DNA from: Naegleria gruberi
Taxonomy: Eukaryota
Direction: 5' to 3' (one strand)
Assembly: GCA_000004985.1 (NCBI GenBank)
Contig: GG738868.1
Length of the DNA: 64,000 nucleotides
Shown here: positions 16,468-57,109 of the stretch, one piece after another
How the letters are laid out: each line of letters begins with the position of its first letter
Numbering within the stretch: the stretch's first letter is position 1
Position numbers and translations under genes: made by a program
The notes under the pieces: model-generated
Told to the model about the DNA's origin: nothing
Database searches by the model: none
What the model saw: only the letters and a program-made list of their open reading frames with translations

Positions 16468-18339
16468 ATGACCCCATTCAAGAATCTAGTGCTTGCACTA
16501 TTGGGTCTTGTCTGCTTGACACTTATTACAAACTCTGTACAAAGTTCAAGCATGCCATCCATCATTAGAAGACAATTGACATATAAGAAATGTGAATCCA
16601 TTGGTGATCCACATTATCTTTCATTCACTGGTCAACGTTTCGATCACATGGGTTTAGGAGATTACGTTCTTGCTCAATCATCTGATAATCAATTCACTGT
16701 TCATGTCAGAACTAGTAAGTGGGGAGGTGCTGCAGCTGTCAATTCCAATGTTGCTGTCAGATTAGGTAAAGGAGAAGATGATACTTTCGAATATGATGTC
16801 GAACAAGATGTTTTTTACATTTCTGGTGTAAAGGCAAGTGTAGCTGTCAATCAAAAAGTTTCACTTGGAACAGGTGACATTCACAGATTGAATTCTAACA
16901 CTGCTGTCATTTCTGCATCCAATGGAGTCAAGATGACAATGTCTTGGTATCGTCATGCTGCTTGGAAACAACAATTAGGTTCGGTTGGCTACATTTCAGC
17001 TGTCATTGATGCTCCAAGTGATGTCAATTTCAGTAAGGGAATGTGTCTTGGCATTAATCAAGCATCTCAACAAGCAATTGACATTTTGCACAATCACGTT
17101 CAGAGAAGAATTGCTAGAAAGGCAGAACTCTTGAAGGAAACTCCAAAGAGAAAGAGAACTGCACGAAAGGTCTGTAAGAAAGCTGGTTTAAAGAAGAAAC
17201 AAAATCCATTCGCTTGGAAGTCATGTGTCAAGGATGCCATTCAATCAGGTGCCAAGATTGGTTTGGCAATTGGTAAAACCATTAAGAAGGTTAAAGTTGC
17301 TGAAAAGAAAGTTCTGAAAAAGGCAATGAAGAAGAGAGGCAAGAAAATTGTTCGAAAGGTAAAGAAGGGAATTAAAAAGGCAGAGAAACAAGTTGACTTG
17401 TTGAAGAAGAAGGCTGATCAAGCTCAAAAGAAGGCAACTGCAAAGAAAAACAAGTGTGCTAAGCGTGCTTCCAGAAAGGCCAGACGTGCTGCTAGAAGAG
17501 CCAGACGTGCCCAAAAGAAACTTGCAAAGAAACAACAAATTCTTGAAAAGGTCAAGAAAACTGTCAAGAAAACTATCAAGAAAGTTGGTCGTCGTGTGAG
17601 AAAGGTCAGAATTGTCAAGAATTGGAACAAGCTCATCAAGAAGGTCAGAAGGGACAGAAAGAGAGCCATGAAAGCTGCTAAGAAAGCTAAGAAAGCTGCT
17701 AAAAGAGCCATCAAGGAAGCAACCAGAAAGGCAAGACAACTGGCAGAAGAAAAGAAGAAACAAGCTGAAGAATTAGCTAAAAAGCTCCAAAGAGATGCTG
17801 AAGCAGCTGCCAAGAAATTGAGAGATGCTGTCGAAGCTGCTGCAAGAAAGGCAAGAGAGGCTGCCGAAAGAGCCAGACAACAAGCTGAAAATGCCAGATT
17901 GAAAGCTACTCGTCGTGCTAGAAAACAAGCTGAAAGATTGGCCAAGTTGGCCAGAGAAGCTGCTGAAAGAGCTGCCAAGCAACAAAGAGCCATTCTTGAA
18001 CAAATTCAAAAGCTTGCCAAATTGGCTGCCATCAAGAAAGCTCAACAACAAGCTGAAGCAAAGAAGAGAGCTGCCAAAGCTTTGAGAAAGGTTGAACAAG
18101 CCAAGAGAAAGGCAGCTGAAGCTCTTGAACGTGCCAAAGCGGAAGCAACCAGAAGATCTATTGAATTGGCTGATAAATTGAGAAAAGCTGCTGAAAGAGC
18201 TGCTAAAGAAGCAGTTGAAAGAGTCAAAAAAGTTGAGGAATTGAAGAAGAAGGCCATTAAGGAAGTTGAAGAAAGGGCCAGAAAACTTCTTACTGGAGGT
18301 GTTTCAAAGGGAAAGACTGTTTGTTTAAGACTTCCATAA
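16468..18339 (+). CDS. secreted protein: signal peptide + VWD-like domain (GDPH motif) + about 420-aa polybasic Lys/Arg/Ala-rich helical tail
   Basis: ATG at 16468. The signal peptide is MTPFKNLVLALLGLVCLTLITNSVQSS. KCESIGDPHYLSFTGQRFDHMGLGDYVLAQSSDNQFTVHVRT matches the N-terminal signature of von Willebrand factor type D domains (C-x3-GDPHY-x-[ST]F-x-G...Y-L). From about aa 200 the protein is more than 50% K/R/A (KKAMKKRGKKIVRKVKKGIKKAEK...), grading into mixed-charge KAAE/ERAR heptad-like helices. Codon choice is strongly biased (aag/aga/gct/gtt). Confidence 0.7.
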   Translation: MTPFKNLVLALLGLVCLTLITNSVQSSSMPSIIRRQLTYKKCESIGDPHYLSFTGQRFDHMGLGDYVLAQSSDNQFTVHVRTSKWGGAAAVNSNVAVRLGKGEDDTFEYDVEQDVFYISGVKASVAVNQKVSLGTGDIHRLNSNTAVISASNGVKMTMSWYRHAAWKQQLGSVGYISAVIDAPSDVNFSKGMCLGINQASQQAIDILHNHVQRRIARKAELLKETPKRKRTARKVCKKAGLKKKQNPFAWKSCVKDAIQSGAKIGLAIGKTIKKVKVAEKKVLKKAMKKRGKKIVRKVKKGIKKAEKQVDLLKKKADQAQKKATAKKNKCAKRASRKARRAARRARRAQKKLAKKQQILEKVKKTVKKTIKKVGRRVRKVRIVKNWNKLIKKVRRDRKRAMKAAKKAKKAAKRAIKEATRKARQLAEEKKKQAEELAKKLQRDAEAAAKKLRDAVEAAARKAREAAERARQQAENARLKATRRARKQAERLAKLAREAAERAAKQQRAILEQIQKLAKLAAIKKAQQQAEAKKRAAKALRKVEQAKRKAAEALERAKAEATRRSIELADKLRKAAERAAKEAVERVKKVEELKKKAIKEVEERARKLLTGGVSKGKTVCLRLP

Positions 18340-20206: not shown

Positions 20207-22463
20207 TTAATGTAATTGACCATCTTGTGTATCCAAATCAATATTGGATGATATTTCAGATCTAGTATCACCAAAATCAGAGTATGAACTATATAAAGGT
20301 TGTTTCAAACTGGATGAATCAAGTGAATTGGCAAATTCTTTAACTTCATCTCCTCCAACTTCGTCCCTCTCCCTAACAGAAGGCCAAACTCCAAATATTA
20401 CAAATACAAATAAACATGAGATGACCAACATCCACCCCAAAACAAGTGACAAAATGTCATATTCATAAACAATCTTTCCATCAGGTGATTGATTTCTATG
20501 ATTGGTAGAAAATGGTTGAATGCACTCAGTTACAATATTCCAAACAACGAGTATGAATAATAGAACAGGTCCAATGTACTTGATGGAAATGCTCCACAAA
20601 ATGTAAGGTCCAAATGAAGTTTCCTTGGAGAATCGTTCCCTTACATGTTCAATAGAAAAGAAGGAAACCTGTTTGAAATTATTCCAATTCTTTTCCAAAC
20701 GGAATTGATTCCAACGTTTTGAAAAGTATTGGCAAATAGAAATCCAATAGGTTATTGATTTGGTTCTTCTGAGTGCCTTTTTCTTTTTTCTATTGACTCC
20801 TCCATCTTGGTTGGAAGAGAACCATCCAATCATGACACATTCCATCATGGCAATCATTCCCATTCCATAATTTCCAACATAGTGATCTACAATTTCCAAA
20901 ATATAATACCCATTGGAGAGTGTGAATGGCACTGCAATCACACAAATGAGACAAACCACAATAATTGAAACAACTAATCGTCTGGTATTTCTACGAGGTA
21001 TTTGATTCTTGACAATATCAATCATGGACTCTACAAAACACATTATACTGTTAAATCCAACAAAGACTAGAGAAAGCAAGAGAATGAACACAAAAATTTG
21101 TGGTGTTGGGAATAATCTAGAAACTACTTCAATCATGACGAATAGAGGACTCGCAATCGCAGGAGTAAAGAGTGAATTGATTTCATAAGGACTGGTCCTA
21201 GTAGTCGAAAGATAACCTAAACTAGCATAATAGGTCAATCCACTAATTAAGGAAAATAACAATCCAAAGAAAATGATAGTCCACGAAGTGAAAATAGTAT
21301 CCTTCTTCGTCTTGTACTGTGAAGCATGAATAGCAAGAGCACCATTGGCAATACCATATGTGAAACATAATTGTCCAAAAGCTCCCAACCATAAATCTCC
21401 CTTTGCTAATAAGCTCCAATTTGGTCTGAGGAATTGCAACATTCCTGAACTAGCTCCAATTTCCAATGACACTCTAACCAATACAACAATCATAACCACC
21501 AGATACGACAAGCTCAATAATGAAATGATGACTCGAGAAAATCTATTGATGTACTGGGCAAAAACGAGCCAATAGGTAAGAAACCAGAAACAAACTAGAG
21601 AAACCAGTATTGGCCATGAAAGGAATCCTGAAAGATCAAATGAGTGATCTGAGAGATGCAATATTTCATCGTGAAAGAAGGTTTCTGGTTTATCAGACCA
21701 TGGAAATCTATATTTTCATCCAAAATATTGAAAAACAATGTTTCCAATTCAAATTAAATTGAAATACGTACTGTTCCATAAAAACATATCCAAAATAAGT
21801 TGCAATCCAACAAGTAATCACAGAATAATAAGAAGCAATAATCAAACTTCCAAAAACAATTGCTGCCATTCCAATTCCACTAGCTCTCCTATTCCACCTT
21901 CCCAATGCAAAGACAATCGATTGCTTGGCAATAGAACCCAATGTGAAATCCAAAATAATCAAAGGAGCTCCAATGATCACTAATAATACAATATATGGTA
22001 TAAAGAATGCACCTCCCTCGAATTGGTGCACTAAATAAGGGAATCTAATAACACTTCCAAACGTCATTGAGAATCCCACTGTTAAAATCAATGATTCCAA
22101 CATTCTTGCAATGACAAGGCTCTTCTTTTCATGTACAACAGAATTGCCTTGATCATTAGCAGCAGATGAGTAATAGTACAATGATGTCTGGTTATTTCCT
22201 CCGATTCCATGTTTGACAAACTTGTCATCAGCACCATGAGCACCACCACCATCATTAATACTCATCATTGAAGGAGAAGAATTTACAAAATGATTAGATG
22301 ATGAAATTCTGTGATTTGTTGATGGCTTATCTTCATGACTATCAATGGAACCATAATGAGTGGTGGGAATGTAATTGTGTTGTGAGGATTGCGAAAGGGC
22401 CCTTCCTCTCTGCTTATCATAATATTCATCATCATCATAATACAATTGATTATTATTCATCAT
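20207..22463 (-). CDS. SLC6 (SNF) sodium-dependent neurotransmitter/amino-acid transporter, 2 exons
   Basis: Exons 21772..22463 and 20207..21707, with a 64-nt intron 21708..21771 (GTACGT...ATATAG). The phase was checked: 692 nt, then 2+1501 nt. TM1 signature IRFPYLVHQFEGGAFFIPYIVLLVIIGAPLIILDFTLG (compare [22 protein letters not shown]). Downstream is a polytopic region ...GAFGQLCFTYGIANGALAIHASQ..., about 730 aa in total. Confidence 0.85.
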
Positions 22464-37454: not shown

Positions 37455-37528
37455 TGCCTCCCTTGGGAATCGAACCCAAGACCTCTGTCTTACTAGGACA
37501 GCGCTACTGCCAACTGAGCTAGGAAGGC
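37455..37528 (-). tRNA. tRNA-Thr (anticodon AGU)
   Basis: The revcomp is GCCTTCCTAGCTCAGTTGGCAGTAGCGCTGTCCTAGTAAGACAGAGGTCTTGGGTTCGATTCCCAAGGGAGGCA. The acceptor stem has 7 bp (one G-U). Anticodon stem CTGTC/GACAG with loop CTAGTAA gives anticodon AGT. T arm is TTGGG-TTCGATT-CCCAA. Confidence 0.8.
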
Positions 37529-39427: not shown

Positions 39428-42329
39428 TTATTCATCATCTTCATAGTCATCATCTTCATAATCACCTTCCTCATCATCCTCATCGTGATTAATACTGTGT
39501 TTGAAAGCAGCTTCTTCCTCCAATTTCTTTACCTTCATTTCAATAGCTCTTTGCTCCAAAACACAATCTGAGAAAATTTCGGCAATCTCTGCCAAGACTT
39601 CAAAATCCACTTTTTGTAACTCTTTTGCTGCACCTTCTAACTCATCACAGCTGAATGCTCCACTCGATACAAGTCTTCTGACATATTGTAACAAACTCTC
39701 TTTCAAAGAAATGTCTGCTATAAAATCGGCCATTGAATAAATATCAATAATGTACTGAGTAATGGTTTCTTGATTAATCTCAAAGGAAGGATTAATGTCA
39801 GTAGTGTCGCAAGTTGGAAAAGCAGATTTACATAAGATTACATTTTCAAAATCCACATCGTTAGTGTATGCAAAGTATACTAAGGCTGCTACAGAAATTA
39901 ATGGATGGGCTTGGTCTTGCAAATAAAATATCATTGAGACATCTGAAATATCAATCACATTACTTTCATCCACAACCATATTGTTGAACAAGTTGTTAAA
40001 ATATTCATAACGAATACAAAGGAGTGCCTTTGGTACTGTAATTTTCCAAGTTTTGTCTTCAAATGTCAAAGATAAAGTAGCGTTAGTGTTGATTTGTGAA
40101 TATTGAAGAGAGCTATCCATAAGCATGGAGAAATTAGTGTACATGTATTCTCTTGCCAATCTTACTCTCTTAGTTTCATAGCTATCGATCTGAGAAGTGC
40201 AACAGAGCTTGAAAAAGGAAATTTCTTCTTCTGAGAACCCTTTTTGACTGAGGAAGATATCAATATGTTTCTCTCGTGTTTCGTTGATTGTTGGGAGTAC
40301 ATTAAAGGATAAATAATTAGCAGTTAAAATTGCCAAATCTTTCAAGATAGCATCATTTGAAAGTTTAAGCTTGTCCCAAATAATCTTGAAAAGAGAAATA
40401 CCCTTCCTGATATCAATTGATATATATAATAACTTTCTTAAATAATCAATCATTTCTTGAATGCCAATAGAACAGACAGCTGAATATATCTCTATAAAGT
40501 CTTTAAAAATTGGCGTGTCTTTTTCATGATATGGAAGACTGACATCATTTGGGGTTAACTCAATACCATAGCAATACCTTAGTAAACACTTCAATGTCAA
40601 TGTAGTAAAGTGTGTAGTGTCAAGCTTTTTCTCAAACAATTCTCTAAAATATTGAATATGGGATAGCATGAATTTGTGGCATAGGAATCTGTCACCATCA
40701 GTTGATACTAGGGTATAATCTGAATAATTGTTTTCTTTAAGTAACTTCATGGACAATTCCTCAAACACAGCATCAGTAGAAGCACTTTTAGTTGGATCAA
40801 TAAGTAGAGAAGGGTCGTTTTGATAATCAAAGTGAGTCAAATCAAAAGTAAGAAGGGAAGAATCATAATCAGAATAACCAGTTTTGCCAGTTTTACCTCC
40901 AAAGCTAAGAAATTTCTTAGATAATGTTGTAGGATAAGAAGAAATCATTGGTCTGGAAAATGTGGTCATACTATCTCCATAATCATAGAATAAGCAGTTA
41001 GATTTAAAGTTAATATCATTATAACCAATACATAATCCAATATTTCCTCCTCTGTAAATTATTTCATCGTCGGTCAGTATTTTCTTTTTTAATTTTCTCT
41101 CCTTGCCTAGAGTAATTCTCTTCAAAGAAGATTTTTCATTCTCTTCTTCTCTCTGAATATCAAGCATTGAAAGTGAATCATCAACTAGTTTACAATTTTT
41201 CCAAATTTCTTCCTCAATGTTATATATTTGAGTATCTTTAAATCTATTTATGTCGTTTCTTCCACCATGAAGAATTAGGTATTCATATTGTGATTCAAAG
41301 TTATGATTGAACTTCATAGTCTTTGAAATAAACTTTGGTTTTCCATAAGATTGAAATGATGATAATCCAGCTGCAAATCTAGCATCTGGGAAAGAGTAGT
41401 TACAATCAACACTGAACCAAGTCTTACAATTAAAGTCAAAATATTCCAACAAGTTAAGTGAAGAGCTACTCGCATAGTAATGGTCATTACTTGTTCTTCC
41501 ACCAAAAATAAAGAACTTATTCAAGACCATTGCAGAACAAAGTACATGCCTGGAACTTGGTTTCTTACCTGCCAACACCTCGACATCCTTCCAAAGCAAA
41601 TCTCTAAAATCAAATTCAATAAAATCATCGAATTCAAAAAGTGATCCCTCACCCCCAAACACTACAAATCCCGATTGATCTGATTTCAATTCCATAGCAT
41701 GAGCATATCTTTTACAATCACCAATAGGAACAACTGTCTCAAAAACACTTTGATAATGGACTTTCCTCTCGTGTGGATAAGGGTAACCAGTTAGATTTCC
41801 AGTTGCTTGCCTCCAGTTAGTTAATCCTGTGTCACCAAGATGTGTTTTCCACTTGAATGTATTCAAATCCAATTTAAAAACGCCAATATCTAGAAATTGA
41901 TATCCCATATTGCTCTAAATGAATCATTCAGAAATGCAAAATGAAAAATAAACTCACCACATTACCACCAAAGAAATAGATTGCATGATCAGCTCTTCTA
42001 TAAACACATTTCATTCCCCATGCCTGACGAATTGCTGAATTATTAACAGAGTGTTGTTGCCAAACACCTGTTCTCAAATCTAATTCAAATACTTCAAGAT
42101 CTCCACTCACAACATGTTCTTCAACAACACCACCCATACAGAAGAGTGAATGTCTCGGAGGACAAGCCACAAGAGCAATTTGAGATCTTTGTGAAGGAAC
42201 TTTGCCTCGTTGTTGTTCCGCTGTAAATTTTCGATAGGGAATAAATGGATCGGAGCAAATATCATTCATGAAGCGAGACGAAGTGGTCGAACCAACACTA
42301 ACACTCTCGCTTTGATAATTTGATGACAT
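39428..42329 (-). CDS. Kelch-repeat protein with two C-terminal BTB/POZ domains and acidic tail, 2 exons (about 952 aa)
   Basis: Exon 1 is about 41958..42329 (ATG 42327-42329; MSSNYQ...IYFFGGNV). A 43-nt intron (GTGAGT...CATTTAG) follows, then exon 2 is 39428..about 41914 (SNMGYQFLDIGVFKLD...). Kelch blades have GG/W spacing (FVVFGGEG, FIFGGRT, LILHGGRND). BTB1: DYTLVSTDGDRFLCHKFMLSHIQYFRELFEK. BTB2: WKITVPKALLCIRYEYFNNLFNNMVVDESNVIDISDVS. The tail is DEDDEEGDYEDDDYEDDE. My base count disagrees with the ORF table by 1 nt in this stretch, so splice coordinates are accurate only to +/-1. Confidence 0.75.
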
Positions 42330-43341: not shown

Positions 43342-44358
43342 TTAGTTGTGCAACACTTGACCAAGAATTGAATGTCGTAGTAGTGCATATTGTAGAGGTA
43401 GTATTACCTGAGAATATGAATCCTCAGCAGAACCCAATTCAAAATAATTTACTCTGCATTGCAGTAAGGGAATACCTTTAGAATAAATTTCGTCATTAGG
43501 AGTCAATTCTCTCATCAATTCCTCAATCATTTCGGTACTCACTTGTCTTTTCAATTCCTTCTTTAATCCAATAATTAAAAAAGTAATGTTTTTCTTACTC
43601 AACCAATCCATAATTGAATTTTCATTTAATTTTGAAAGAAAAAATGGAAGATATTTCATTCGTAAACTTTCGAATGATTCTTTCGAGCTCAAATCGAAAC
43701 AATATACAATAACATTACTTGATGGTATTTGAGATGATATTATTCCTTGATAAATCCACTCTCCTGAACAATCCCACAATTGAATTGAAAATGTTTCATT
43801 TAAAGCTGAAAATCTTACAAATTCCACTTCTGAACTTATTGTTGGTTCTATTTTCGTTTTAAATTTAGAGTTTGGAATTATCAATCTATCAACAAAACAT
43901 GATTTTCCACATGATTTAGGTCCCATGATGAGGAATTTCAAAAGTTTCCCACTTTCGGTAGTGTATTTAATATTTCTATTGAGAAATGGAAGAAAGGTTG
44001 AGTGAAAATGAGTAAAATATTCACTTGGTGAATTTTTGGGAATTGGTTTAAACCAAATAAAAGATCCATATTCTGAACTATCCCTCTCTTTCCAATTTAA
44101 TCGAATCCAATAATTTCTAAAATTCCTGCTAACTTGTTTTAACTTTGTATATTCAATATTATCCAAATATGATAATATTAAACTGAGTAATTCATCAGGT
44201 AATTGTTTTTCTAATGTGGAAATGTTGTTGAAATTGTAAACTTTCCGTTTATCAATATCATTATCAACATTAGTTTCGTATTTTGCAAGAAATAAATTTT
44301 TCGGATAATGATCAATTATTTCTGATGGTGACGGAGCGAGTGTTAGTGATTGTCCCAT
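43342..44358 (-). CDS. F-box domain + Ras-like small GTPase domain protein
   Basis: The table start is TTG 44379; the first ATG is 44356-44358 (MGQSLTL..., Gly2). F-box: LPDELLSLILSYLDNIEYTKLKQVSRNFRNYW. GTPase motifs: LKFLIMGPKSCGKSCFVDRLI (P-loop), IQLWDCSGEW (DxxG), LIIGLKKEL. Confidence 0.6.
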   Translation of the reverse strand: MGQSLTLAPSPSEIIDHYPKNLFLAKYETNVDNDIDKRKVYNFNNISTLEKQLPDELLSLILSYLDNIEYTKLKQVSRNFRNYWIRLNWKERDSSEYGSFIWFKPIPKNSPSEYFTHFHSTFLPFLNRNIKYTTESGKLLKFLIMGPKSCGKSCFVDRLIIPNSKFKTKIEPTISSEVEFVRFSALNETFSIQLWDCSGEWIYQGIISSQIPSSNVIVYCFDLSSKESFESLRMKYLPFFLSKLNENSIMDWLSKKNITFLIIGLKKELKRQVSTEMIEELMRELTPNDEIYSKGIPLLQCRVNYFELGSAEDSYSQVILPLQYALLRHSILGQVLHN

Positions 44359-44547
44359 TTTTTTTTTAATAATTTTCAAGATGACGTGTTATTGATTGTA
44401 AAATAATTTTCAATAATTACAAAATTAATAAAATGATATTGGAAAAATCAAAGAATAATTAACAAGAGTCTGCATACCTTATTGAAAGAAGGAATTTAAT
44501 TTACTGAAAATAATGAACAAACTTGAAAACTTAGATTTCTCAGTTTT

Positions 44548-45557: not shown

Positions 45558-46538
45558 ATGTTTCAACCACCAACTCTCGATGAATGCCAACAAGCTCTCG
45601 AATTTACTTCCCTCTCCGATCATGAAAAAACATGTAAATGTTATCAATCACAATATTTTGATCAATTGACAGAACAATTGTGGGGAAATTGGTTGAATCA
45701 ACACAAGGAAAGTGGGCAAACTTTTAGAAATTTCATGGATAAACATCAGGATGATGATTTATATTGTAAACAGGAGGAAAGACGAGTGGTTTATATTTAC
45801 CTGTTGGATAATGTATTGATGGATGGACAGGTTGACACAACAGCTCAGGAAATTCAATTCAAAGACAGAATTGGAAATCATCCATGTTTGAAAAAGGTGA
45901 TTGAGTTTCTGAGAGCTTTTTATTGGGGAGTTACTGTGAAAGCCATGCAACCATCCGAGAAGCAACTTTCTGATTATAGAAATCAATTCAAATTTACGAA
46001 TAGAATAACTTCGTTTGGGAAGAAACAGTTTCTAACAAGTGATATTATCAATTTTCTAAAACAAGTGAAACCTAAAGACTGTTATTGCATGTTGGCATTA
46101 ACAAGTTTTGATTTGTATCCAAAGGAAGATTGGAATTATGTCTTTGGAATTGCAAATATGACCCATCAAGTTGGAGTTATTTCTCATTCGAGATTTGATC
46201 CAAACTTTATGAACAAGTTTTATCCGATTCTTTCAGAAAAGGAGAAGGAAGAATTGATTTTGAAGAGAAGTTGCAAATTGGCTGCCCATGAGATTGGCCA
46301 TTTGTTCAAGTTCAAGCATTGCATTTATTATGATTGTCTAATGAATGGATACAATAGCTTAGAGGAGGTGGATGGGACTTTTATTGATATATGTCCGATA
46401 GAGATTAGAAAGTTGAAAGAGTCAATTGGATTTGATGAGCAGGAGAGATTTGGAAAGATGAGAGAATTTTTCAAAGGCAATGAGGAGTGTTTTGGGAAAG
46501 AATTGGAGTTTGTGGAAAAGATATTGAGTAAACCTTAA
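45558..46538 (+). CDS. archaemetzincin-like zinc metalloprotease
   Basis: ATG at 45558. AHEIGHLFKFKHCIYYDCLMNG fits the archaemetzincin signature HExxHxxGxxHCxxxxCxM. Confidence 0.75.
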   Translation: MFQPPTLDECQQALEFTSLSDHEKTCKCYQSQYFDQLTEQLWGNWLNQHKESGQTFRNFMDKHQDDDLYCKQEERRVVYIYLLDNVLMDGQVDTTAQEIQFKDRIGNHPCLKKVIEFLRAFYWGVTVKAMQPSEKQLSDYRNQFKFTNRITSFGKKQFLTSDIINFLKQVKPKDCYCMLALTSFDLYPKEDWNYVFGIANMTHQVGVISHSRFDPNFMNKFYPILSEKEKEELILKRSCKLAAHEIGHLFKFKHCIYYDCLMNGYNSLEEVDGTFIDICPIEIRKLKESIGFDEQERFGKMREFFKGNEECFGKELEFVEKILSKP

Positions 46539-46588: not shown

Positions 46589-46659
46589 TCAGGTGTGGTA
46601 TAGTGGTAGCATTCCAGACTGTCACTCTGGCGACCCGGGTTCAATTCCCGGCACTCGAG
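46589..46659 (+). tRNA. tRNA-Asp (anticodon GUC)
   Basis: TCAGGTGTGGTATAGTGGTAGCATTCCAGACTGTCACTCTGGCGACCCGGGTTCAATTCCCGGCACTCGAG. Anticodon stem CCAGA/TCTGG with loop CTGTCAC (GTC). T arm is CCGGG-TTCAATT-CCCGG. It is close to eukaryotic tRNA-Asp consensus (GTATAGTGGT D-arm). The acceptor stem has an A3-C70 mismatch. The overlapping table ORF 46593..46976 is spurious. Confidence 0.75.
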
Positions 46660-47830
46660 AAGTAATAGTTTTATATTTTAATCATTTCTCAATAATTTTT
46701 TGCACTTTCTTGTGGTATGGTTTTGTATCTTCATTTGATTTCATTTTTATTTTTCAAAAATATTTTGTAATTCCTTTTTTGGAAGCCTCAGAAGAACCAT
46801 CATTTTTTTCACATCCCCTGTACTTTAATTTTCCAAACATTCTCAACCCAAAATCAATTCATCTCTCCACAAACTATTCTCCACCTTCACTTTCACCGAA
46901 ATATCAATTCTACCATTCATCCTTTATCTCGCTCAATTTTAATACAACCAATCAAGCATACTTCAATATTTTGTAAAAATAGCAAAAAAACGCCATACGC
47001 TCGAGTTATTACTTGTTCTTTCCCGCCAAAATCTCAGTTAGTATTTGTGGTAAGTGAGAGGACAACTCATTCTTGGTTTTGGTGTCACTCATCTCTATGA
47101 GATCTTGCAAACTGGAATGCAATCACTCTGTAGATGCAACGATATCTACAGAAATTTTACATTTTCCTCAACAAAATCTTGATAAACTTAGAGATAAATC
47201 TTTAGCCTATACTTTAATGCACTTTCTTCAAGTGTTTATTACAGTTTGTTGTCATGTAACAATATTTGGAATAGAGCACGAATCTTGATTGAGTCACTAA
47301 GTTTTCCTTCTTTACAAAAACCAAGCATATCAAAAAATCCCTGCCTAAATTGTTCCTAATTTTTGCTCTTCAACATTTGATTGGATCTTCAAAAAGAGAC
47401 TGGACGAATTGAATAGAGACACACTCATTACCGACTTTTGATGCTATCAATACACTTGTCTCAAAACTATTTCACATCTTCTATATACTTCATACAAAAC
47501 TTATTCGAAACATATTGTTAAAACTAATCAACATTATCCTTCTCGTTGTATGGAATCTGATACTCCCAATTGATGAACCTGTATTGTCAATTGACTGCTC
47601 CACTACATCGAAATAGTAAAGAGTTATTCTTTCAACATCCAAAATGTCACCCAAACCGCTAATTCAAATGACTTTCTTCTTCGCATCAGTGATTCGACAT
47701 GCTCGTGTCACCAATCCCCCATCATTTCACAACTAGTAATGTGTTCTCTCTGCTGAGCAATATTTAAAATGTCACTCGAGCCAACTGCCAATCAAATCAT
47801 CCACATAAAAAAATTCACAATTTATAACAA

Positions 47831-49064
47831 GATGAATAAGACCCTCTTGTTCGCATTAGCCATGCTTTTCTGCATGGTTGCTTTCGTTTCTGCTGGTCCA
47901 TCTGCCAGTGCTGAAACTCTCGCTGCCACCACATTGTGCAACACTTTAGGAAATAAAACTAAAGGATGTGTCAAGTCATCTAGAAAACTCTTGAAAAGAG
48001 TTCCAAAGAATAAGAGAAGACAAGTTAAGAGATTGTTAAAGAAGGCCAGAAAGAATGCTCGTAAAGCAAAGAAACAACAAAGAAAGCTCAGAAAATTGAG
48101 AAGATGTGCCAAGAAGGCTAAATCTTTGAAGAAGAGAAGACAATGTAGAAGAGCATTGAAGAAGGTTGTTAAGAAGATCAAGAAGGCTAGACGTGCTGCT
48201 AGAAGAGCTGCCAAGAAGGCTGCTAAGAAGGCTAGAAAGGCCAGAAGATCTGCTAGACGTGCTGCTAGAAGAAAGGCCAGAAAAGCTTTGAAGAAGGCTA
48301 AGAAATCCTTGAAGAAGAGAAGAGCTTTGAAGAGAGCTGTCAGAAAGGGTAGAAAGTTCGGAAGAAAGGTCAGAAAGGTCAGAAAGTGTAAGAGATCTTC
48401 CTCAAGAAAGACCAGACGTGCTGCCAAGAGAAGAGTCAAGAAGGCAGTTAAGAAGGCTTTGAGAAAGTTGAAGAAACAATTGAAGAAGGCTAGAAAGGTT
48501 GCTAAGAAGGCTGCCAAGAAGGCTAGAAAGGCTAGAAGATTGAGAAGAAGACCAGCTAGAAAATGTAGACGTGTCTCAAAGAAGTCCATTAAGAGAGCTG
48601 TTAAGAGAGTTGTCAAGAGAGCTGTTAAGAAGGCTACTTTGAAGCTCAGAAAGCAATTGAAGAAGGCTAAGAAGCAAGTCAAGAAGGCTAGAAAGGTTGC
48701 CAAGAAGGCTGTTAAGAAGGCCAGAAAGGTTGTCAAGAAGGTCAAGAAGACTTGTAGAAGAAAGGTCAAGAAGGCTGCCAAGAAGATTGCTAAGAGAAGA
48801 TCTGCTGCCAAGAAGGTCGTCTTGAAGAAGGCTGCTGCTAAAAAGTTGAACAAGGTTGTTAACAAGTTGTTGAAATTGAAGAAGAAGCTCGGTAAGAGAT
48901 TCAACCCAAAGAAACACATCCCAAAGAAGGTTAGAAAGGTCTTGAGAAAATTGAGAATTTCTGCCAAGTGTGTCAAGAAGGTCAAGAAGGCTGCCAAGAA
49001 GGTTAAGGTCTCAAAGGCTTTGTTGAACAAGTTGAGAAAGGTTTCTTCCAAGTGTAGAAAGTAA
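47831..49064 (+). CDS. secreted hyper-basic Lys/Arg-rich protein with regularly spaced cysteines (about 410 aa, more than 55% K+R)
   Basis: The table ORF starts at ATG 47769. A second in-frame ATG at 47831 begins a canonical signal peptide MNKTLLFALAMLFCMVAFVSAGPSASA. The mature protein is nearly pure K/R/A/V/L (KKARKNARKAKKQQRKLRKLRRCAKKAKSLKKRRQCRRALKK...). About 10 Cys occur at semi-regular spacing, and dozens of dibasic sites are present. Codon use is strongly biased (aag/aga/gct/gtt/gtc/ttg). Confidence 0.65.
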
Positions 49065-49295
49065 ATCAATTTCATTTGAATTTGAATCATTAAATTATTA
49101 AATACATATTTGGAAATTCAATTATTAATTTACCCATAAATTTGTTATTGTATTGCGTTTTGAAAAAAGCATGTAGATCAACAAAACTGATATGTATTGT
49201 AATATTATTTTAAATTGATTGGAAAAATTGTAAACTTTCAAAAAACGAAAAATTTGGTAATTCAAGATTAATTTTTTTTGAATTTGATAAAAAAA

Positions 49296-50447
49296 ATGCT
49301 CAACAATACTTTGGATAATAATTTTTCAATTAATCAGAATTCTGGTGATAATAATGATGGAAAAAAGAGAAAATTACAAATTGCCTTTGATGATGAATTA
49401 ATTAATCAACACGTTTCGGAGCAGATGAGTAAGAAGAGAATTCAGAATGATGAATTTGATTCGGAATTAATTCCTTTTTATCTGCAAGATGTATTTCTGG
49501 AAAATGTATTCCCGTTCATGAATGGAAGAGATTTGAATCGGATTCGATTGGTATGCAATAGTTGGTTTAATTTTCAGAAGGGAGATTATTTTGTATCGAA
49601 TCATGTGGCTCGTTTGAAATTAGAACATGATGTATTGAATATTTCAAAGAAAAAGACTCAATTATCTATTGTGAGAATGCATTTGGGATACAAGCAAGGG
49701 AAAATGTTGATTATTCATATAGAAAAGAATGATTCTCTTTCAGAGGATTTAATTGATGAACATGTATTGGATCCTGCTTGTACCAAACAAATAGATGATA
49801 CAATCATTTCAAAATTTGATTTTACAAAAATTAAATCAATTGTTGGATGGAAGGATGGAAAGAAACATGGAGAAGTTATTGATTATTTCAAAACTGGAGA
49901 AATTATGCAAATTGGACATTTTGAGAATGGAAAAAAGCATGGAGATTTTATCAAGTATTTCAACTCTCCTCATGTTGTGGAGAGGACATGTTCCTATAAG
50001 AATGACAAGTTGTGTGGTAAATTGGACGAATACAAGATAGTTCGCGATTTACAAAATCAAAAATTAGTGTTGAAAGATGTAGAATGTTCGTACGAGAATG
50101 GAAAGTATCATGGCGAGAAGATTGTCTATGATAAAGATGGAAAGATTACAGAAATTACCAATCACAAGAATGGAAAATTACATGGTGTTTCCAAATATTT
50201 CGAGGTTGGAAGAGGTTATTTGAAATTGGAAGTAAATTATCAAGATGGAAAATTACATGGCACCCACAAATCATTCTTTGCTAATGGAACACCATTTGAA
50301 ACCAAAGAATATGAAAATGGAAAGTTAATTTCTCAAACAATTGGCTCAACAGGGCGAAGAACTAGTCAAGGATTAGAATCTTCTGATGAAGATCAGGATG
50401 AGGAAATCATCAATTCAGACAATGACAACGAAGAAGATATTGAATAA
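49296..50447 (+). CDS. F-box-like + MORN-repeat protein
   Basis: The table start is TTG 49278; the ATG is at 49296. F-box-like: IPFYLQDVFLENVFPFMNGRDLNRIRLVCNSWFN. At least 6 MORN repeats (GKKHGEVIDYFKTGEIMQIGHFENGKKHGDFIKYF; YENGKYHGEKIVYDKDGKITEITNHKNGKLHGVSKYF; YQDGKLHGTHKSFFANG). The C-terminus is acidic. Confidence 0.65.
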   Translation: MLNNTLDNNFSINQNSGDNNDGKKRKLQIAFDDELINQHVSEQMSKKRIQNDEFDSELIPFYLQDVFLENVFPFMNGRDLNRIRLVCNSWFNFQKGDYFVSNHVARLKLEHDVLNISKKKTQLSIVRMHLGYKQGKMLIIHIEKNDSLSEDLIDEHVLDPACTKQIDDTIISKFDFTKIKSIVGWKDGKKHGEVIDYFKTGEIMQIGHFENGKKHGDFIKYFNSPHVVERTCSYKNDKLCGKLDEYKIVRDLQNQKLVLKDVECSYENGKYHGEKIVYDKDGKITEITNHKNGKLHGVSKYFEVGRGYLKLEVNYQDGKLHGTHKSFFANGTPFETKEYENGKLISQTIGSTGRRTSQGLESSDEDQDEEIINSDNDNEEDIE

Positions 50448-55435: not shown

Positions 55436-57109
55436 ATGGGACAAGATCAATCAACAGTTTCCATTCCGAAGAATAACATGTTTATTTGTGGAGAAAACAA
55501 AGAATGTAATTATATTTAAATACTTACATTTAGAATGAAAACAATTTGATAATTATTTAAATATATCATTGTATTATCAATATGATAAATAATGATCAAA
55601 TAATATTAAAGATCAATTCGGAATTGGATTTTCAAATTATACAACATTGAGAGAAATTAATAATTTCAAACAGGAAAATATTAAGAAGGTGTGCTGTGGA
55701 CCAAACTTTACAATTGTTCTAACCGATAGAGATGAAGTATATGGAACAGGATCGAATATTTATGGAGTTTTGGGTTTAGATTCATTTAGTCAATCGGATA
55801 GTCATCACTTTAATATTAATCGATTTGTAAAATTGCCAATTTCATTCAAGGTACAACATATTTGCTGCTGTAGATCGATGGTTGCTATTATTTCGAATGG
55901 ATATTTGAAAGCAAATAGGGAAACATTGTTGAATAGATCGATTATTTCGAATAGTTCCAGTCCTACCCAATTAAATGCCTATGGGCAAATGTTTTTCTGG
56001 AGTGGAGGTGATATTTCAATATCTGGTTGTCCAATCAATAAGAAATTCACTCCAATATATGATTGGAATTTTAATATAATGGGAAAAGTCAAGTTTTTCG
56101 AGTCGAGTCCATTTTCTTCCTTTTTTATAGTAGTAACAGGTAATTATTAATATTTCATTAGATTATAATTTTCGTTGGAATATATTAGAATTCAATAGGG
56201 TTTACTTTTCTGGACAAAATTGTAGTGGACAATTTGGAAATGGAGAGGAGAAACGAAATTTTAAATCCTTGTACCAATTGACTGATAATTTATTTCCAAC
56301 TTTTAAAGGCATAAAGCATGTTGCTTGTGGATCTAAACATTGTATTATAGTAACAGATGATAATGAACTCTACTCGAGTGGTAGTAATCAATATTTTCAA
56401 TTAGGACACTCCAACAATGCGAAACAAGACACCTTCCAGAAACCTGCAACAGAATTTCAAGGCAAAAAAATTGAACTAGTCAAGTGTGGAGAAAATTATA
56501 CAATGGTTTATTTGAGTAGTAAGTTTTGAGAGTTGGTTCGAATTTTTAATAATGAGGAAATTGTCAGATGGTGATTTATATGCTTGTGGAGCTAATCATT
56601 TTGGACAATTACTCAATAATCAAACTCAAAGGAAGGTTATATTTCACAAGATTCTAACTGATCGATCACTTGTTTCCCTCTCTTGTGGTAATAACTTTTC
56701 GCTCTATTTGACCAGGAATTGCCAAGTAATGAGGGCAGGTTCTAATGAATATGGTCAATTATTCTCTACGAAGAATGGATTTCAAATGCAAACTACAAAG
56801 GTGGATAAATCAATGCGTTTATTTGGATTGACTTGCTCCAACAATCTGACAATACTATATAAACAAAAGGATAATGATTGTGGAGAGATTTATTTGAGAA
56901 GATATTGCTCACAATTTGTCAAATCCTCTCCAAACAATAATAGACAACAGAACAAGGTATTATCACCCACAAAAAAGAGGAAGAAAAACTACCTTATGTA
57001 CAGATCTATCCACGACCATTTCTCGTTCATGTTTGATATTGCTTCGAGCTTGAAAATGGAGAATGCTACCCACCTTTTGTGCGATATTGAGGTGAAAATT
57101 TTGGAATGA
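55436..57109 (+). CDS. RCC1-repeat (regulator of chromosome condensation-like) protein, 4 exons (about 489 aa)
   Basis: Exons 55436..55505 (MGQDQSTVSIPKNNMFICGENKE), 55612..56139, 56189..56518, 56568..57109. Introns: 55506..55611 (GTAATT...AAAG), 56140..56188 (49 nt, GTAATT...TATTAG), 56519..56567 (49 nt, GTAAGT...GTCAG), all phase 1. The spliced product carries repeated RCC1 signatures: CGENKEYQFGIG, VCCGPNFTIVLTDRDEVYGTGSNIYGVLGLDS, IVVTEFNRVYFSGQNCSGQFGNG, VACGSKHCIIVTDDNELYSSGSNQYFQLGHSN, LYACGANHFGQLLN, LSCGNNFSLYLT...AGSNEYGQL. Confidence 0.7.

What the first reader, a model, noticed from the sequence alone, without database searches (positions are those of the whole stretch)
47769..49064. 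Second secreted, almost pure Lys/Arg protein (pI likely above 12) with periodic Cys and dozens of dibasic sites
After a textbook signal peptide the protein is more than 55% K+R with A/V/L spacers and about 10 cysteines at semi-regular intervals (RRCAKK, RRQCRRA, RKCKRSS, ARKCRRVS, KKTCRRKV, SAKCVKKV, SSKCRK). It resembles protamines or sperm nuclear basic proteins and histone H1 tails, but those are not secreted. One alternative is a polyprotein precursor processed at KR/RR sites by kexin or furin into cationic antimicrobial-like peptides. Another is an extracellular polyanion- or nucleic-acid-condensing protein. This gene and 16468-18339 look like members of one lineage-specific family, sharing a signal peptide and a K/R/A-rich, Cys-punctuated body.
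Basis: seen in the sequence. Interest (0 to 1): 0.8.

Follow-up and report, generated by a model that had tools for sequence, protein, structure and literature searches.

The report
Secreted polycationic helical protein of Naegleria
This is a real but unannotated gene of the amoeba Naegleria gruberi that encodes a secreted 45 kDa protein with about 195 net positive charges, built as long amphipathic helices; it belongs to a small uncharacterised amoeba-specific family, and its function is inferred rather than shown.

Summary
ORF 47769/47832-49064 (+) encodes a signal peptide followed by a body that is 53-55% Lys+Arg with no Asp or Glu, 9 mature Cys and pI about 12. The window is Naegleria gruberi nuclear DNA, and the protein is absent from a 15-billion-protein collection, so it is probably unannotated. 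It is not a random low-complexity polymer. Basic residues come as pairs in 78% of runs (25% expected by chance). Apolar residues recur every 3.6 residues (z 14.5), and AlphaFold2 predicts 50-107-residue helices. Codon bias is the strongest of 29 ORFs in the window. A roughly 70-residue C-terminal two-Cys motif is shared with N. gruberi NAEGRDRAFT_59485 and with a Willaertia magna protein (z 14 against shuffles). Synonymous codon changes across that motif show purifying selection. In both homologues the same polybasic body and motif follow von Willebrand D domains. This links the target to window ORF 16468-18339 by shared architecture only. Dibasic sites are no more frequent than composition predicts, so the kexin-polyprotein idea has no specific support. 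My best reading, inferred and not shown, is an abundant, disulfide-crosslinkable extracellular polycation that binds polyanions in a matrix, cyst wall or adhesive. An antimicrobial role is the main rival.

The parts
47832..49064 (+). Coding sequence from the likely start (Met22 of the long ORF) to the stop: 410 aa precursor in a single exon
   Evidence: Continuous ORF. The signal peptide and the conserved C-terminal motif lie in the same frame. Codon bias is the strongest of 29 ORFs in the window (Val GTY 100%, Leu TTG/CTC 89%, Ala GCY 94%, Lys AAG 88%, Arg AGA/CGT 100%). Against W. magna, 18 of 33 conserved residues in the motif use different synonymous codons.
47769..47831 (+). Possible 21-aa N-terminal extension if the upstream ATG is used (MSLEPTANQIIHIKKFTIYNK)
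   Evidence: In frame with the CDS. The W. magna homologue starts MNKS..., matching MNKT... at Met22, which favours 47832 as the start. This is not settled without transcript data.
47832..47894 (+). Signal peptide MNKTLLFALAMLFCMVAFVSA, with predicted cleavage VSA|GP
   Evidence: Read from the sequence: a short basic n-region, a 16-residue hydrophobic core, and small residues at -3 and -1. All three relatives have equivalent N-termini. No signal-peptide predictor was available.
47895..47969 (+). Neutral N-terminal segment with two Cys (GPSASAETLAATTLCNTLGNKTKGC), a possible remnant of the post-VWD two-Cys linker
   Evidence: The pattern C-x3-G-x(n)-C-[VI] directly precedes the basic body in the target and in every VWD-bearing relative. 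This is suggestive only.
47970..48836 (+). Polybasic amphipathic-helix body (residues 47-335): 55% K+R, 33% A/V/L/I, no D/E, 5 Cys
   Evidence: Composition. KK/KR/RK/RR pairs and the 100-degree periodicity (z 12.7-14.5). Periods of 3.44-3.81 in each predicted helix. The AF2 model has helices 59-95, 99-186, 193-243 and 250-356, with mean pLDDT 74 and pTM 0.30. A 12-nt DNA periodicity is seen.
48387..48755 (+). Two tandemly duplicated Cys-bounded modules of about 60 aa (residues 186-245 and 245-308)
   Evidence: Protein alignment score 142 against 71+-8 for shuffles. DNA repeat family D3 has 84% identity at 198-nt spacing. The predicted helix breaks lie next to Cys186 and Cys245.
48837..49061 (+). 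Conserved C-terminal two-Cys motif (..LLKLKKKLGKRFNPKKHIPKKVRKVLRKLRISAKC..VKVSKALLNKLRKVSSKCRK)
   Evidence: Local alignment with the C-termini of W. magna P0003 (score 189) and N. gruberi P0005 (score 155), z = 14-15, with 0 of 500 shuffles reaching those scores. Alignment A2. Also detected by BLASTP and tblastn.
47822..49090 (-). Antisense 422-aa F/L/A/T-rich mirror ORF: not a gene, but a by-product of the AAG/AGA/GCT codon composition
   Evidence: Listed. The same kind of mirror ORF lies opposite the W. magna homologue. In W. magna the basic frame is continuous with a Pfam-supported VWD domain.
16468..18339 (+). Family relative in the same window: signal peptide, VWD domain with GDPHY, two-Cys linker, K/R-rich then K/E/A-rich helical tail; lacks the C-terminal motif
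   Evidence: Pfam VWD at 2.8e-08. 40% identity to P0003 (E 4e-57) and 38-42% to both VWD domains of P0005. Basic tail periodicity 98-102 degrees. No direct alignment to the target.

Best explanation
The locus is a genuine, probably highly expressed, single-exon gene of Naegleria gruberi that is missing from protein databases. Its product enters the secretory pathway through a cleaved signal peptide. The mature protein is a 45 kDa polycation with about +195 net charge. Its body is patterned to form very long amphipathic alpha-helices with a narrow Ala/Val/Leu stripe and a wide Lys/Arg face. The helices are jointed at Cys residues, and the protein ends in a conserved two-Cys motif.

It is a VWD-less paralogue of a Heterolobosea-specific family with the architecture signal peptide, 0-2 VWD domains with a GDPH motif, a two-Cys linker, the polybasic helical body and the C-terminal motif.

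Inferred mechanism:
- Outside the cell, or in a secretory compartment, the unpaired positive charge keeps the chain expanded until it meets a polyanion. Candidates are acidic polysaccharide, polyphosphate, nucleic acid, bacterial envelopes or negatively charged substrata.
- Charge neutralisation lets the helices form and pack along their apolar stripes.
- The Cys residues, flanked by basic residues and therefore reactive, together with the C-terminal motif, crosslink the protein to itself and to the VWD-bearing relatives.
- The result is a cationic, disulfide-stabilised extracellular matrix, such as a cyst-wall, adhesive or prey-trapping layer.

Shown: gene reality, reading frame, family, composition, helical patterning and the conserved motif. 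Inferred: secretion (from sequence and from VWD fusion in homologues), high expression (from codon bias), polyanion binding, crosslinking and the biological setting.
For: Organism:
- The neighbouring ORF is identical to N. gruberi XP_002677081.

Coding and selection:
- Codon bias is the most extreme in the window, and the W. magna homologue shows the same AAG preference.
- 18 synonymous changes occur among 33 conserved residues of the C-terminal motif.
- In W. magna, the VWD domain, the basic tail and the motif lie in one uninterrupted genomic ORF.

Family:
- P0003 (E 9e-7).
- P0005 = NAEGRDRAFT_59485 (target residues 67-404 aligned to P0005 residues 599-921).
- Motif z = 14-15 against shuffles.
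- VWD confirmed by Pfam in the relatives.
- A shared two-Cys linker pattern.

Helical rod design:
- Paired basic residues make up 78% of basic runs against 25% by chance, and the periodicity is 100 degrees at z 14.5.
- The same periodicity appears in the basic regions of all relatives.
- AF2 predicts helices of 37-107 residues that break at Cys186 and Cys245.
- Only 2% of the body is Gly+Pro.

Polyanion binder rather than membrane lytic:
- The body has 53% K+R, only 19% V/L/I/F/M/W, and no acidic residues.

Not a known family:
- No Pfam, PDB-sequence or fold match.
Against: - There is no expression, localisation or binding data of any kind, and no literature on the family.
- The signal peptide was judged by eye, because no predictor was available.
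- The target lacks the VWD domain, so co-assembly with the VWD-bearing relatives is conjecture.
- The Cys count in the mature protein is odd (9), and only the two C-terminal Cys have counterparts in the relatives (P0005's body carries a single Cys).
- Codon bias could partly reflect amplification of AAGAAGGCT-type repeat units and avoidance of poly(A) tracts, rather than high expression.
- The family was found in only two genera, and no orthologue was detected in N. fowleri. The searches are handicapped by composition filters.
- A polycationic amphipathic helix is equally the design of killer or antimicrobial peptides.
Confidence: 0.45

Rival explanations
1. It is an antimicrobial or killer polycation. 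The protein, intact or cut into helical fragments in phagosomes or after secretion, binds bacterial envelopes or enters prey or competitor cells. It kills by membrane perturbation or by condensing their nucleic acids and acidic proteins. This would suit a bacterivorous amoeba.
For: - The cationic amphipathic alpha-helix pattern is the classical design of helical antimicrobial peptides.
- Strong codon bias suggests abundance.
- Naegleria is known to make other antimicrobial peptides from multi-peptide precursors (the naegleriapores; from my own knowledge, and cited in the reference list seen).
- Preprints argue that highly cationic peptides kill by aberrant condensation, and one shows such peptides acting on N. 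gruberi itself (title and abstract listed; text read).
Against:
- There is no acidic pro-piece to neutralise the cargo.
- Helices of 50-107 residues have almost no Gly/Pro breakers or spacers.
- Dibasic sites are not enriched over composition and mark no unit boundaries.
- The most conserved element is a single C-terminal motif, and relatives are fused to VWD matrix-type domains.
Confidence: 0.25
2. It is a lumenal packaging or counter-ion protein. It stays inside secretory granules or acidic vesicles, where it condenses an anionic cargo (acidic glycans, polyphosphate or acidic proteins) for dense storage. This would resemble basic granule proteins or the polybasic partners of polyacidic proteins in adhesive-gland granules.
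For: A signal peptide with no membrane anchor. Extreme charge with no internal neutralisation. VWD proteins in animals are themselves condensed in granules before release (established knowledge of VWF and mucins; not tested here).
Against: No anionic partner was identified in the window (one search found only two K/R-rich ORFs, and I saw no strikingly acidic secreted ORF). There is no localisation evidence. It is not clearly distinguishable from the main explanation, because packaged material is usually released afterwards.
Confidence: 0.12
3. It is a nuclear, nucleolar or ribosome-associated basic protein (histone H1-, protamine- or SNBP-like) with a mis-called start. On this reading the hydrophobic N-terminus is not a functional signal peptide.
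For: The composition resembles AK-rich H1 tails, and charge density approaches that of protamines. An upstream in-frame ATG at 47769 exists.
Against: - No Pfam match to linker histone, protamine or any ribosomal protein family even at E<=5.
- No internal Met after the hydrophobic segment that could give a signal-less product. Met residues occur only at positions 1, 22, 32 and 36 of the long ORF.
- All relatives start with the same kind of hydrophobic N-terminus, and their identical polybasic tails are fused in one ORF to extracellular VWD domains.
- The body contains Cys and is patterned as an amphipathic helix, unlike H1 or protamine tails.
Confidence: 0.04
4. It is not a functional gene. On this reading it is an open frame created by expansion of an AAG/AGA/GCT-rich simple repeat, or a decaying fragment of a VWD-family gene.
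For: The DNA is repetitive with 12-, 21- and 54-nt periods. Both strands are open. The protein is absent from all protein collections searched.
Against: - An intact signal peptide and an intact conserved C-terminal motif lie in one frame 1.2 kb apart.
- The motif shows synonymous-only divergence from W. magna.
- The residue arrangement is non-random and helix-phased, which simple repeat expansion does not by itself give across the whole body.
- Codon bias in all five amino-acid classes tested exceeds that of every other ORF in the window.
Confidence: 0.04

Closest known systems
N. gruberi NAEGRDRAFT_59485 (XP_002671385, 'predicted protein') and Willaertia magna KAL9654998 ('hypothetical protein ABK040_008784')
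   Same: Each has a signal peptide, a long K/R/A/V/L body with the same 100-102 degree apolar periodicity, a two-Cys linker pattern before the body, and the conserved C-terminal two-Cys motif.
   Different: Both carry VWD domains with GDPH (two and one respectively), which the target lacks. Their bodies contain few or no Cys, whereas the target has five in the body. All of them are functionally uncharacterised.
Gel-forming mucins, von Willebrand factor and other VWD-type extracellular polymers
   Same: At the family level: secreted, N-terminal VWD modules, a long central domain of extreme charge density, and a Cys-containing C-terminal end. This suggests end-to-end disulfide polymerisation. 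Lang et al. 2016 (PMC4948705) note that VWD occurs in Naegleria.
   Different: The charge sign is inverted (polycation instead of a glycosylated polyanion). The centre is helical instead of a PTS domain. No C8, TIL or cystine-knot domains are detected by Pfam. The target itself has no VWD domain.
Protamines, sperm nuclear basic proteins and the histone H1 C-terminal domain
   Same: Charge density is similar: 53% K+R against about 66% in salmine (sequence from memory). Both have AK-rich tracts and are plausible polyanion condensers. Mammalian protamines are also crosslinked through Cys (own knowledge).
   Different: Those proteins are nuclear, lack signal peptides, are short or attached to a winged-helix globular domain, and are S/P/G-rich and disordered. 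The target is secreted, 389 aa, helix-patterned, and has no Pfam match.
Cationic alpha-helical antimicrobial peptides (cecropins, magainins, LL-37) and dibasic-repeat peptides such as molluscidin
   Same: An amphipathic cationic helix. Molluscidins are Lys/Ala-rich with KK/KR repeats (own knowledge; molluscidin is mentioned in the paper read).
   Different: Those peptides are 20-55 residues long, usually released from precursors with anionic or structured pro-pieces, and have 2-3 times less charge and about twice the bulky apolar content. The target is a 364-residue continuous body with no spacers.
Secreted polybasic structural or adhesive proteins: the basic C-terminal tail of Giardia cyst wall protein 2, and the polybasic cement proteins of the sandcastle worm (all from own knowledge, not tested here)
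   Same: Signal-peptide-bearing, strongly basic proteins that work with anionic partners in an extracellular wall or glue. They set a precedent for routing polycations through the secretory pathway.
   Different: No sequence relationship is known. Those proteins are Gly/Tyr- or Leu-rich-repeat-based and far less charged. No helical KKxx patterning has been described for them.

Membership tests
Heterolobosean VWD-polybasic-C-terminal-motif family (uncharacterised; defined here from P0003, P0005 and window ORF 16468) | N-terminal signal peptide | tested here: met
   MNKTLLFALAMLFCMVAFVSA|GP, read from the sequence. Equivalent N-termini occur in P0003, P0005 and ORF 16468. No predictor was available.
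Heterolobosean VWD-polybasic-C-terminal-motif family (uncharacterised; defined here from P0003, P0005 and window ORF 16468) | Long K/R-rich body with alpha-helical (about 100 degree) apolar periodicity | tested here: met
   The target peaks at 100 degrees with z 12.7-14.5. Relatives peak at 98-102 degrees with z 8.9-14. The body aligns with P0005 at z 6.1 over shuffles. phmmer gives E 5e-5.
Heterolobosean VWD-polybasic-C-terminal-motif family (uncharacterised; defined here from P0003, P0005 and window ORF 16468) | Conserved C-terminal two-Cys motif (LG[KR][KR][FW][ND]PKK ... KC ... KC) | tested here: met
   z 14-15 against shuffles for both relatives. Alignment A2. Synonymous-codon divergence.
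Heterolobosean VWD-polybasic-C-terminal-motif family (uncharacterised; defined here from P0003, P0005 and window ORF 16468) | At least one VWD domain with GDPH | tested here: not met
   No Pfam VWD in the target. tblastn with P0003 and P0005 finds VWD only at 16477-17283 in the window, and none near the target. The target is therefore a VWD-less relative, not a full-architecture member.
Heterolobosean VWD-polybasic-C-terminal-motif family (uncharacterised; defined here from P0003, P0005 and window ORF 16468) | Two-Cys linker C-x3-G-x(n)-C-[VI] immediately before the basic body | tested here: inconclusive
   The pattern is present at residues 36-47, but with a shorter loop (9 residues between the two Cys, against 15-16 in the relatives). 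It is a loose pattern with no significant alignment.
Linker histone H1 / protamine / sperm nuclear basic proteins | H1 globular winged-helix domain or protamine family signature; nuclear protein without a signal peptide | tested here: not met
   No Pfam family at E<=5. A hydrophobic signal-type N-terminus is present. Localisation could not be tested.
Kexin/furin-processed antimicrobial polyprotein precursors | Repeated peptide units delimited by dibasic sites and separated by spacers or acidic pro-pieces | tested here: not met
   There are 96 dibasic positions against 103+-5 expected from composition. D+E = 0. Only one pair of diverged 60-aa duplicates is present, bounded by Cys rather than by spacers. 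Actual cleavage cannot be tested with these tools.
Gel-forming mucin / VWF-type polymers | VWD-C8-TIL assemblies, a PTS mucin domain and a C-terminal cystine knot | tested here: not met
   Pfam finds only VWD, and only in the relatives. No C8, TIL or CTCK domain is found in any family member. The central domain is polybasic and helical.
Naegleriapore / saposin-like pore-forming peptide precursors | Saposin-like domains with six conserved Cys | tested here: not met
   No Pfam hit. The Cys pattern is single Cys about 60-80 residues apart.

The most novel reading that the evidence does not exclude
Heterolobosean amoebae possess a 'charge-inverted mucin' system. This would be a family of secreted polymers in which VWD multimerisation modules and a C-terminal two-Cys motif are joined by very long polycationic amphipathic helices instead of anionic glycosylated domains. 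The protein studied here would be an abundant VWD-less filler or crosslinker subunit. The resulting cationic matrix would act electrostatically to glue the cell or cyst to negatively charged surfaces, to trap and agglutinate bacterial prey, or to condense an anionic wall polymer. That would be a kind of extracellular material not described in any eukaryote.
Probability: 0.2. Interest if true: 0.75.

Novelty: new variant of a known kind. Interest (0 to 1): 0.5.

Why it matters
A protein with about +195 net charge that is sent through the secretory pathway without any neutralising pro-piece is unusual in cell-biological terms. If the family forms a cationic extracellular matrix, it would add a new material principle (helical polycation rods joined by VWD and Cys modules) to the known repertoire of protist walls, glues and mucus-like gels. 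It would also give a molecular handle on Naegleria encystment, adhesion or prey capture, for which almost no structural proteins are known.

There is a practical point as well. The gene is missing from the reference protein set, and the protein would be nearly invisible to trypsin-based proteomics. The body would be cut into di- and tripeptides, and the mature protein's single Glu, with no Asp, leaves Glu-C and Asp-N nothing to cut in the body. Proteins of this kind are therefore systematically overlooked.

Tried and rejected
- **Word-index homology search with the whole target.** It found only the W. magna protein.
- **Word-index search with the C-terminal motif alignment.** It found nothing, and missed even a sequence contained in the query.
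- **Word-index search with the VWD half of ORF 16468.** It found nothing, and missed a relative that BLASTP scores at 4e-57. The index and composition filters are therefore lossy for this family, and absence of hits is weak evidence.
- **Exhaustive phmmer over 1.84 billion representatives.** It gave one true relative (P0005) and one spurious hit (P0004, a 5291-aa A/E-rich repeat protein).
- **Environmental and viral scans.** Two metagenome scans (C-terminal motif; VWD alignment) and two viral-contig scans found nothing.
- **Exact look-up and contig look-up of the target, ORF 16468 and P0005.** No genomic context was obtained for N. gruberi.
- **PDB sequence search and Foldseek of the AF2 model.** These returned only designed helical bundles and generic helices, which are not informative.
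- **Synteny between the W. magna locus (GT2 glycosyltransferase and sugar-nucleotide transporter upstream) and the window.** None was found.
- **Literature searches.** Searches on Naegleria cyst-wall proteomes, lysine-rich secreted proteins, VWD in Naegleria and the locus tag found nothing on the family. One supplement look-up was empty.
- **Hypotheses rejected.** These were a giant-virus origin (the genes are ordinary eukaryotic housekeeping genes, one neighbour is an exact N. gruberi match, and there were no viral hits), the antisense ORF being the real gene, a hidden upstream VWD exon, and enrichment of dibasic sites.
Full report
**What is there**

The window is nuclear DNA of the amoeboflagellate Naegleria gruberi. 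The ORF at 45558-46538 is identical to XP_002677081 / NAEGRDRAFT_67562. The other ORFs encode ordinary eukaryotic proteins, including F-box-Ras, Kelch-BTB, TLDc, PQ-loop, a SNF transporter, scramblase, lipin and an ABC1 kinase.

The reported ORF exists exactly as described: 47769-49064 (+), 431 aa, with K132, R68, A63, 10 Cys, no Asp, two Glu and a computed pI of 12.0. The likely start is Met22 (47832). It gives MNKTLLFALAMLFCMVAFVSA|GP, a short basic n-region, a 16-residue hydrophobic core and small residues at -3 and -1. The Willaertia homologue begins MNKS... in the same way.

The mature protein would be 389 aa and 45 kDa, with 196 K+R against one acidic residue. K+R is 55% in residues 47-335 and 53% in residues 47-410.

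**Is it a gene, and on which strand**

Both strands are open. The antisense ORF, rich in F/L/A/T, is the mirror image of AAG/AGA/GCT codons. An equivalent mirror ORF lies opposite the Willaertia homologue.

Three results support the + frame:

- The signal peptide and a conserved C-terminal motif lie in one frame 1.2 kb apart.
- In that motif, 18 of the 33 residues conserved with Willaertia magna are encoded by different synonymous codons. Examples are TTG/TTA, CTC/TTA, TCA/AGC, AAC/AAT and GGT/GGA. This is the signature of purifying selection on the protein.
- In W. magna genomic DNA, the polybasic frame is continuous with a Pfam-supported VWD domain in one uninterrupted ORF.

Codon usage is the most biased of 29 ORFs in the window, in all five amino-acid classes tested:

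| Class | Target | Median of other ORFs |
|---|---|---|
| Val GTY | 100% of 36 | 56% |
| Leu TTG/CTC | 89% | 47% |
| Ala GCY | 94% | 66% |
| Lys AAG | 88% of 129 | 44% |
| Arg AGA/CGT | 100% of 68 | 77% |

The W. magna homologue also prefers AAG (0.61-0.69, against 0.10-0.35 in its neighbours). I read this as translational selection, meaning high expression and/or avoidance of poly(A) tracts. Amplification of AAGAAGGCT-type units may contribute.

The protein is absent from a 15-billion-sequence collection, both by exact look-up and by exhaustive phmmer against its 50% representatives. It therefore appears to be unannotated.

**It is not a random K/R polymer**

- The 96 dibasic positions are what composition alone gives (103+-5), so they carry no information about processing.
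- The arrangement is strongly non-random. 78% of basic runs are exactly two residues long (25+-4% in shuffles). Apolar residues recur with a period of 3.6 residues (100 degrees, z = 14.5).
- The periodicity is coherent within each predicted helix, with periods of 3.44-3.81.
- AlphaFold2, run on the single sequence (mean pLDDT 74, pTM 0.30), predicts helices at 59-95, 99-186, 193-243 and 250-356, with breaks next to Cys186 and Cys245.
- Gly+Pro make up only 2% of the body.
- Two Cys-bounded modules (186-245 and 245-308) are tandem duplicates, with a score of 142 against 71+-8. DNA family D3 shows 84% identity at 198-nt spacing. This explains much of the 'semi-regular' Cys spacing.

**Relatives**

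Only two relatives were found.

- W. magna KAL9654998 (P0003, 575 aa) has a signal peptide, a basic stretch, a VWD domain, a two-Cys linker, a basic body and a C-terminal motif.
- N. gruberi XP_002671385 / NAEGRDRAFT_59485 (P0005, 926 aa) has a signal peptide, two VWD domains each followed by a two-Cys linker, a 300-residue K/R body and the same C-terminal motif.

The C-terminal roughly 70 residues of the target align to both at z = 14-15, and 0 of 500 shuffles reach those scores (alignment A2). The basic bodies of all members share the 98-102 degree periodicity.

Window ORF 16468-18339 has a VWD domain (Pfam 2.8e-8) that is 40-42% identical to those of P0003 and P0005. It does not align with the target and lacks the C-terminal motif.

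A loose pattern, C-x3-G-x(n)-C-[VI], precedes the basic body in every member, including the target. This suggests that the target is a VWD-deleted paralogue. That inference is suggestive and not proven.

No VWD exon lies near the target. No relatives were found in metagenome or viral contig scans. No Pfam, PDB or fold match exists for the target.

**How it most likely works (inferred)**

The family architecture matches that of extracellular polymer-forming proteins: a signal peptide, VWD modules, a long central domain of extreme charge and a Cys-containing C-terminus. VWD is an extracellular domain family, and Lang et al. 2016 (PMC4948705) record its presence in Naegleria without assigning a function.

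The target keeps everything except the VWD. It also forms rods far longer than any such peptide.

I therefore favour a polyanion-binding, disulfide-crosslinkable extracellular polycation. Charge repulsion would keep it expanded until a polyanion neutralises it. Candidates are acidic wall polysaccharide, polyphosphate, nucleic acid, bacterial envelopes or negatively charged substrata. The helices would then form and pack along their Ala/Val/Leu stripes. The Cys residues, flanked by basic residues, and the C-terminal motif would link the protein to itself or to the VWD-bearing relatives.

The biological setting (cyst wall, adhesive footprint or prey trap) is not resolved. The only contextual hint is weak. 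The W. magna gene lies directly downstream of a GT2 glycosyltransferase and a nucleotide-sugar transporter, and this arrangement is not conserved in N. gruberi.

**Rivals**

- **Antimicrobial or killer role.** This is the main alternative and cannot be excluded. Amphipathic cationic helices are its hallmark, and recent preprints argue that highly cationic peptides kill by condensation. Specific kexin-type processing has no support.
- **Lumenal packaging role.** This shades into the main explanation.
- **Nuclear basic protein.** This is unlikely. No family match exists, no internal Met could bypass the signal peptide, and the homologues are VWD fusions.
- **Non-functional repeat ORF.** This is contradicted by the synonymous-substitution pattern, by the phased residue arrangement and by the codon bias.

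**Novelty and verdict**

The gene is a new, unannotated, VWD-less member of an uncharacterised Heterolobosea-specific family. As a secreted helical polycation of this size and charge, it is an unusual variant of known kinds (secreted polybasic matrix or defence proteins, and VWD polymers).

Nothing here demonstrates function. Interest is moderate at 0.5. It would be higher if the 'charge-inverted mucin' reading proved true.

Noticed in passing
window 16468-18339 (+): A second secreted family member: signal peptide, VWD domain with a GDPHY (potential Asp-Pro autocleavage) motif, a two-Cys linker, then a K/R-rich and a K/E/A-rich helical tail. Its exact sequence is also absent from the 15-billion-protein collection, so it may be unannotated or modelled differently.
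   Followed up: partly
window 47822-49090 (-); L001 11255-11746 (-): Long F/L/A/T-rich antisense 'mirror' ORFs lie opposite the polybasic coding regions in both N. gruberi and W. magna. They are a compositional by-product that could mislead gene callers.
   Followed up: yes
L001 5491-9638 (W. magna JBEGDK010000039): The W. magna homologue lies directly downstream, on the same strand, of a TPT/UAA-type nucleotide-sugar transporter and an 899-aa GT2 glycosyltransferase. This hints at a glycan or wall-related neighbourhood but is not conserved in the N. gruberi window.
   Followed up: partly
window 37455-37528 (-) and 46589-46659 (+): tRNA-Thr(AGT) and tRNA-Asp(GTC) genes. About 1.1 kb without a substantial ORF separates tRNA-Asp from the target's start, which is long for this gene-dense region.
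   Followed up: no
window 43342-44379 (-), 49278-50447 (+), 39428-41908 (-): Unusual domain combinations typical of Naegleria: an F-box fused to a Ras-like GTPase, a MORN-repeat protein next to the target, and a Kelch+BTB protein.
   Followed up: no
window 20207-22463 (-) and 55647-57109 (+): A SNF-family transporter is split over two adjacent ORFs, and RCC1 repeats are split over two ORFs. These are probably intron-containing genes rather than frameshifts.
   Followed up: no
(method): The word-index protein search returned nothing for a query alignment that contained a database sequence. It also returned nothing for a VWD query whose database relative scores 4e-57 by BLASTP. Negative results from that tool are unreliable for this compositionally biased family.
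   Followed up: partly
window 47895-47957 (+): Because the body is K/R at every second to fourth position and the mature protein has a single Glu and no Asp, trypsin would cut the body into di- and tripeptides and Glu-C/Asp-N would have nothing to cut there. The only diagnostic tryptic peptide is GPSASAETLAATTLCNTLGNK. This may explain why such proteins go unseen in proteomes.
   Followed up: no
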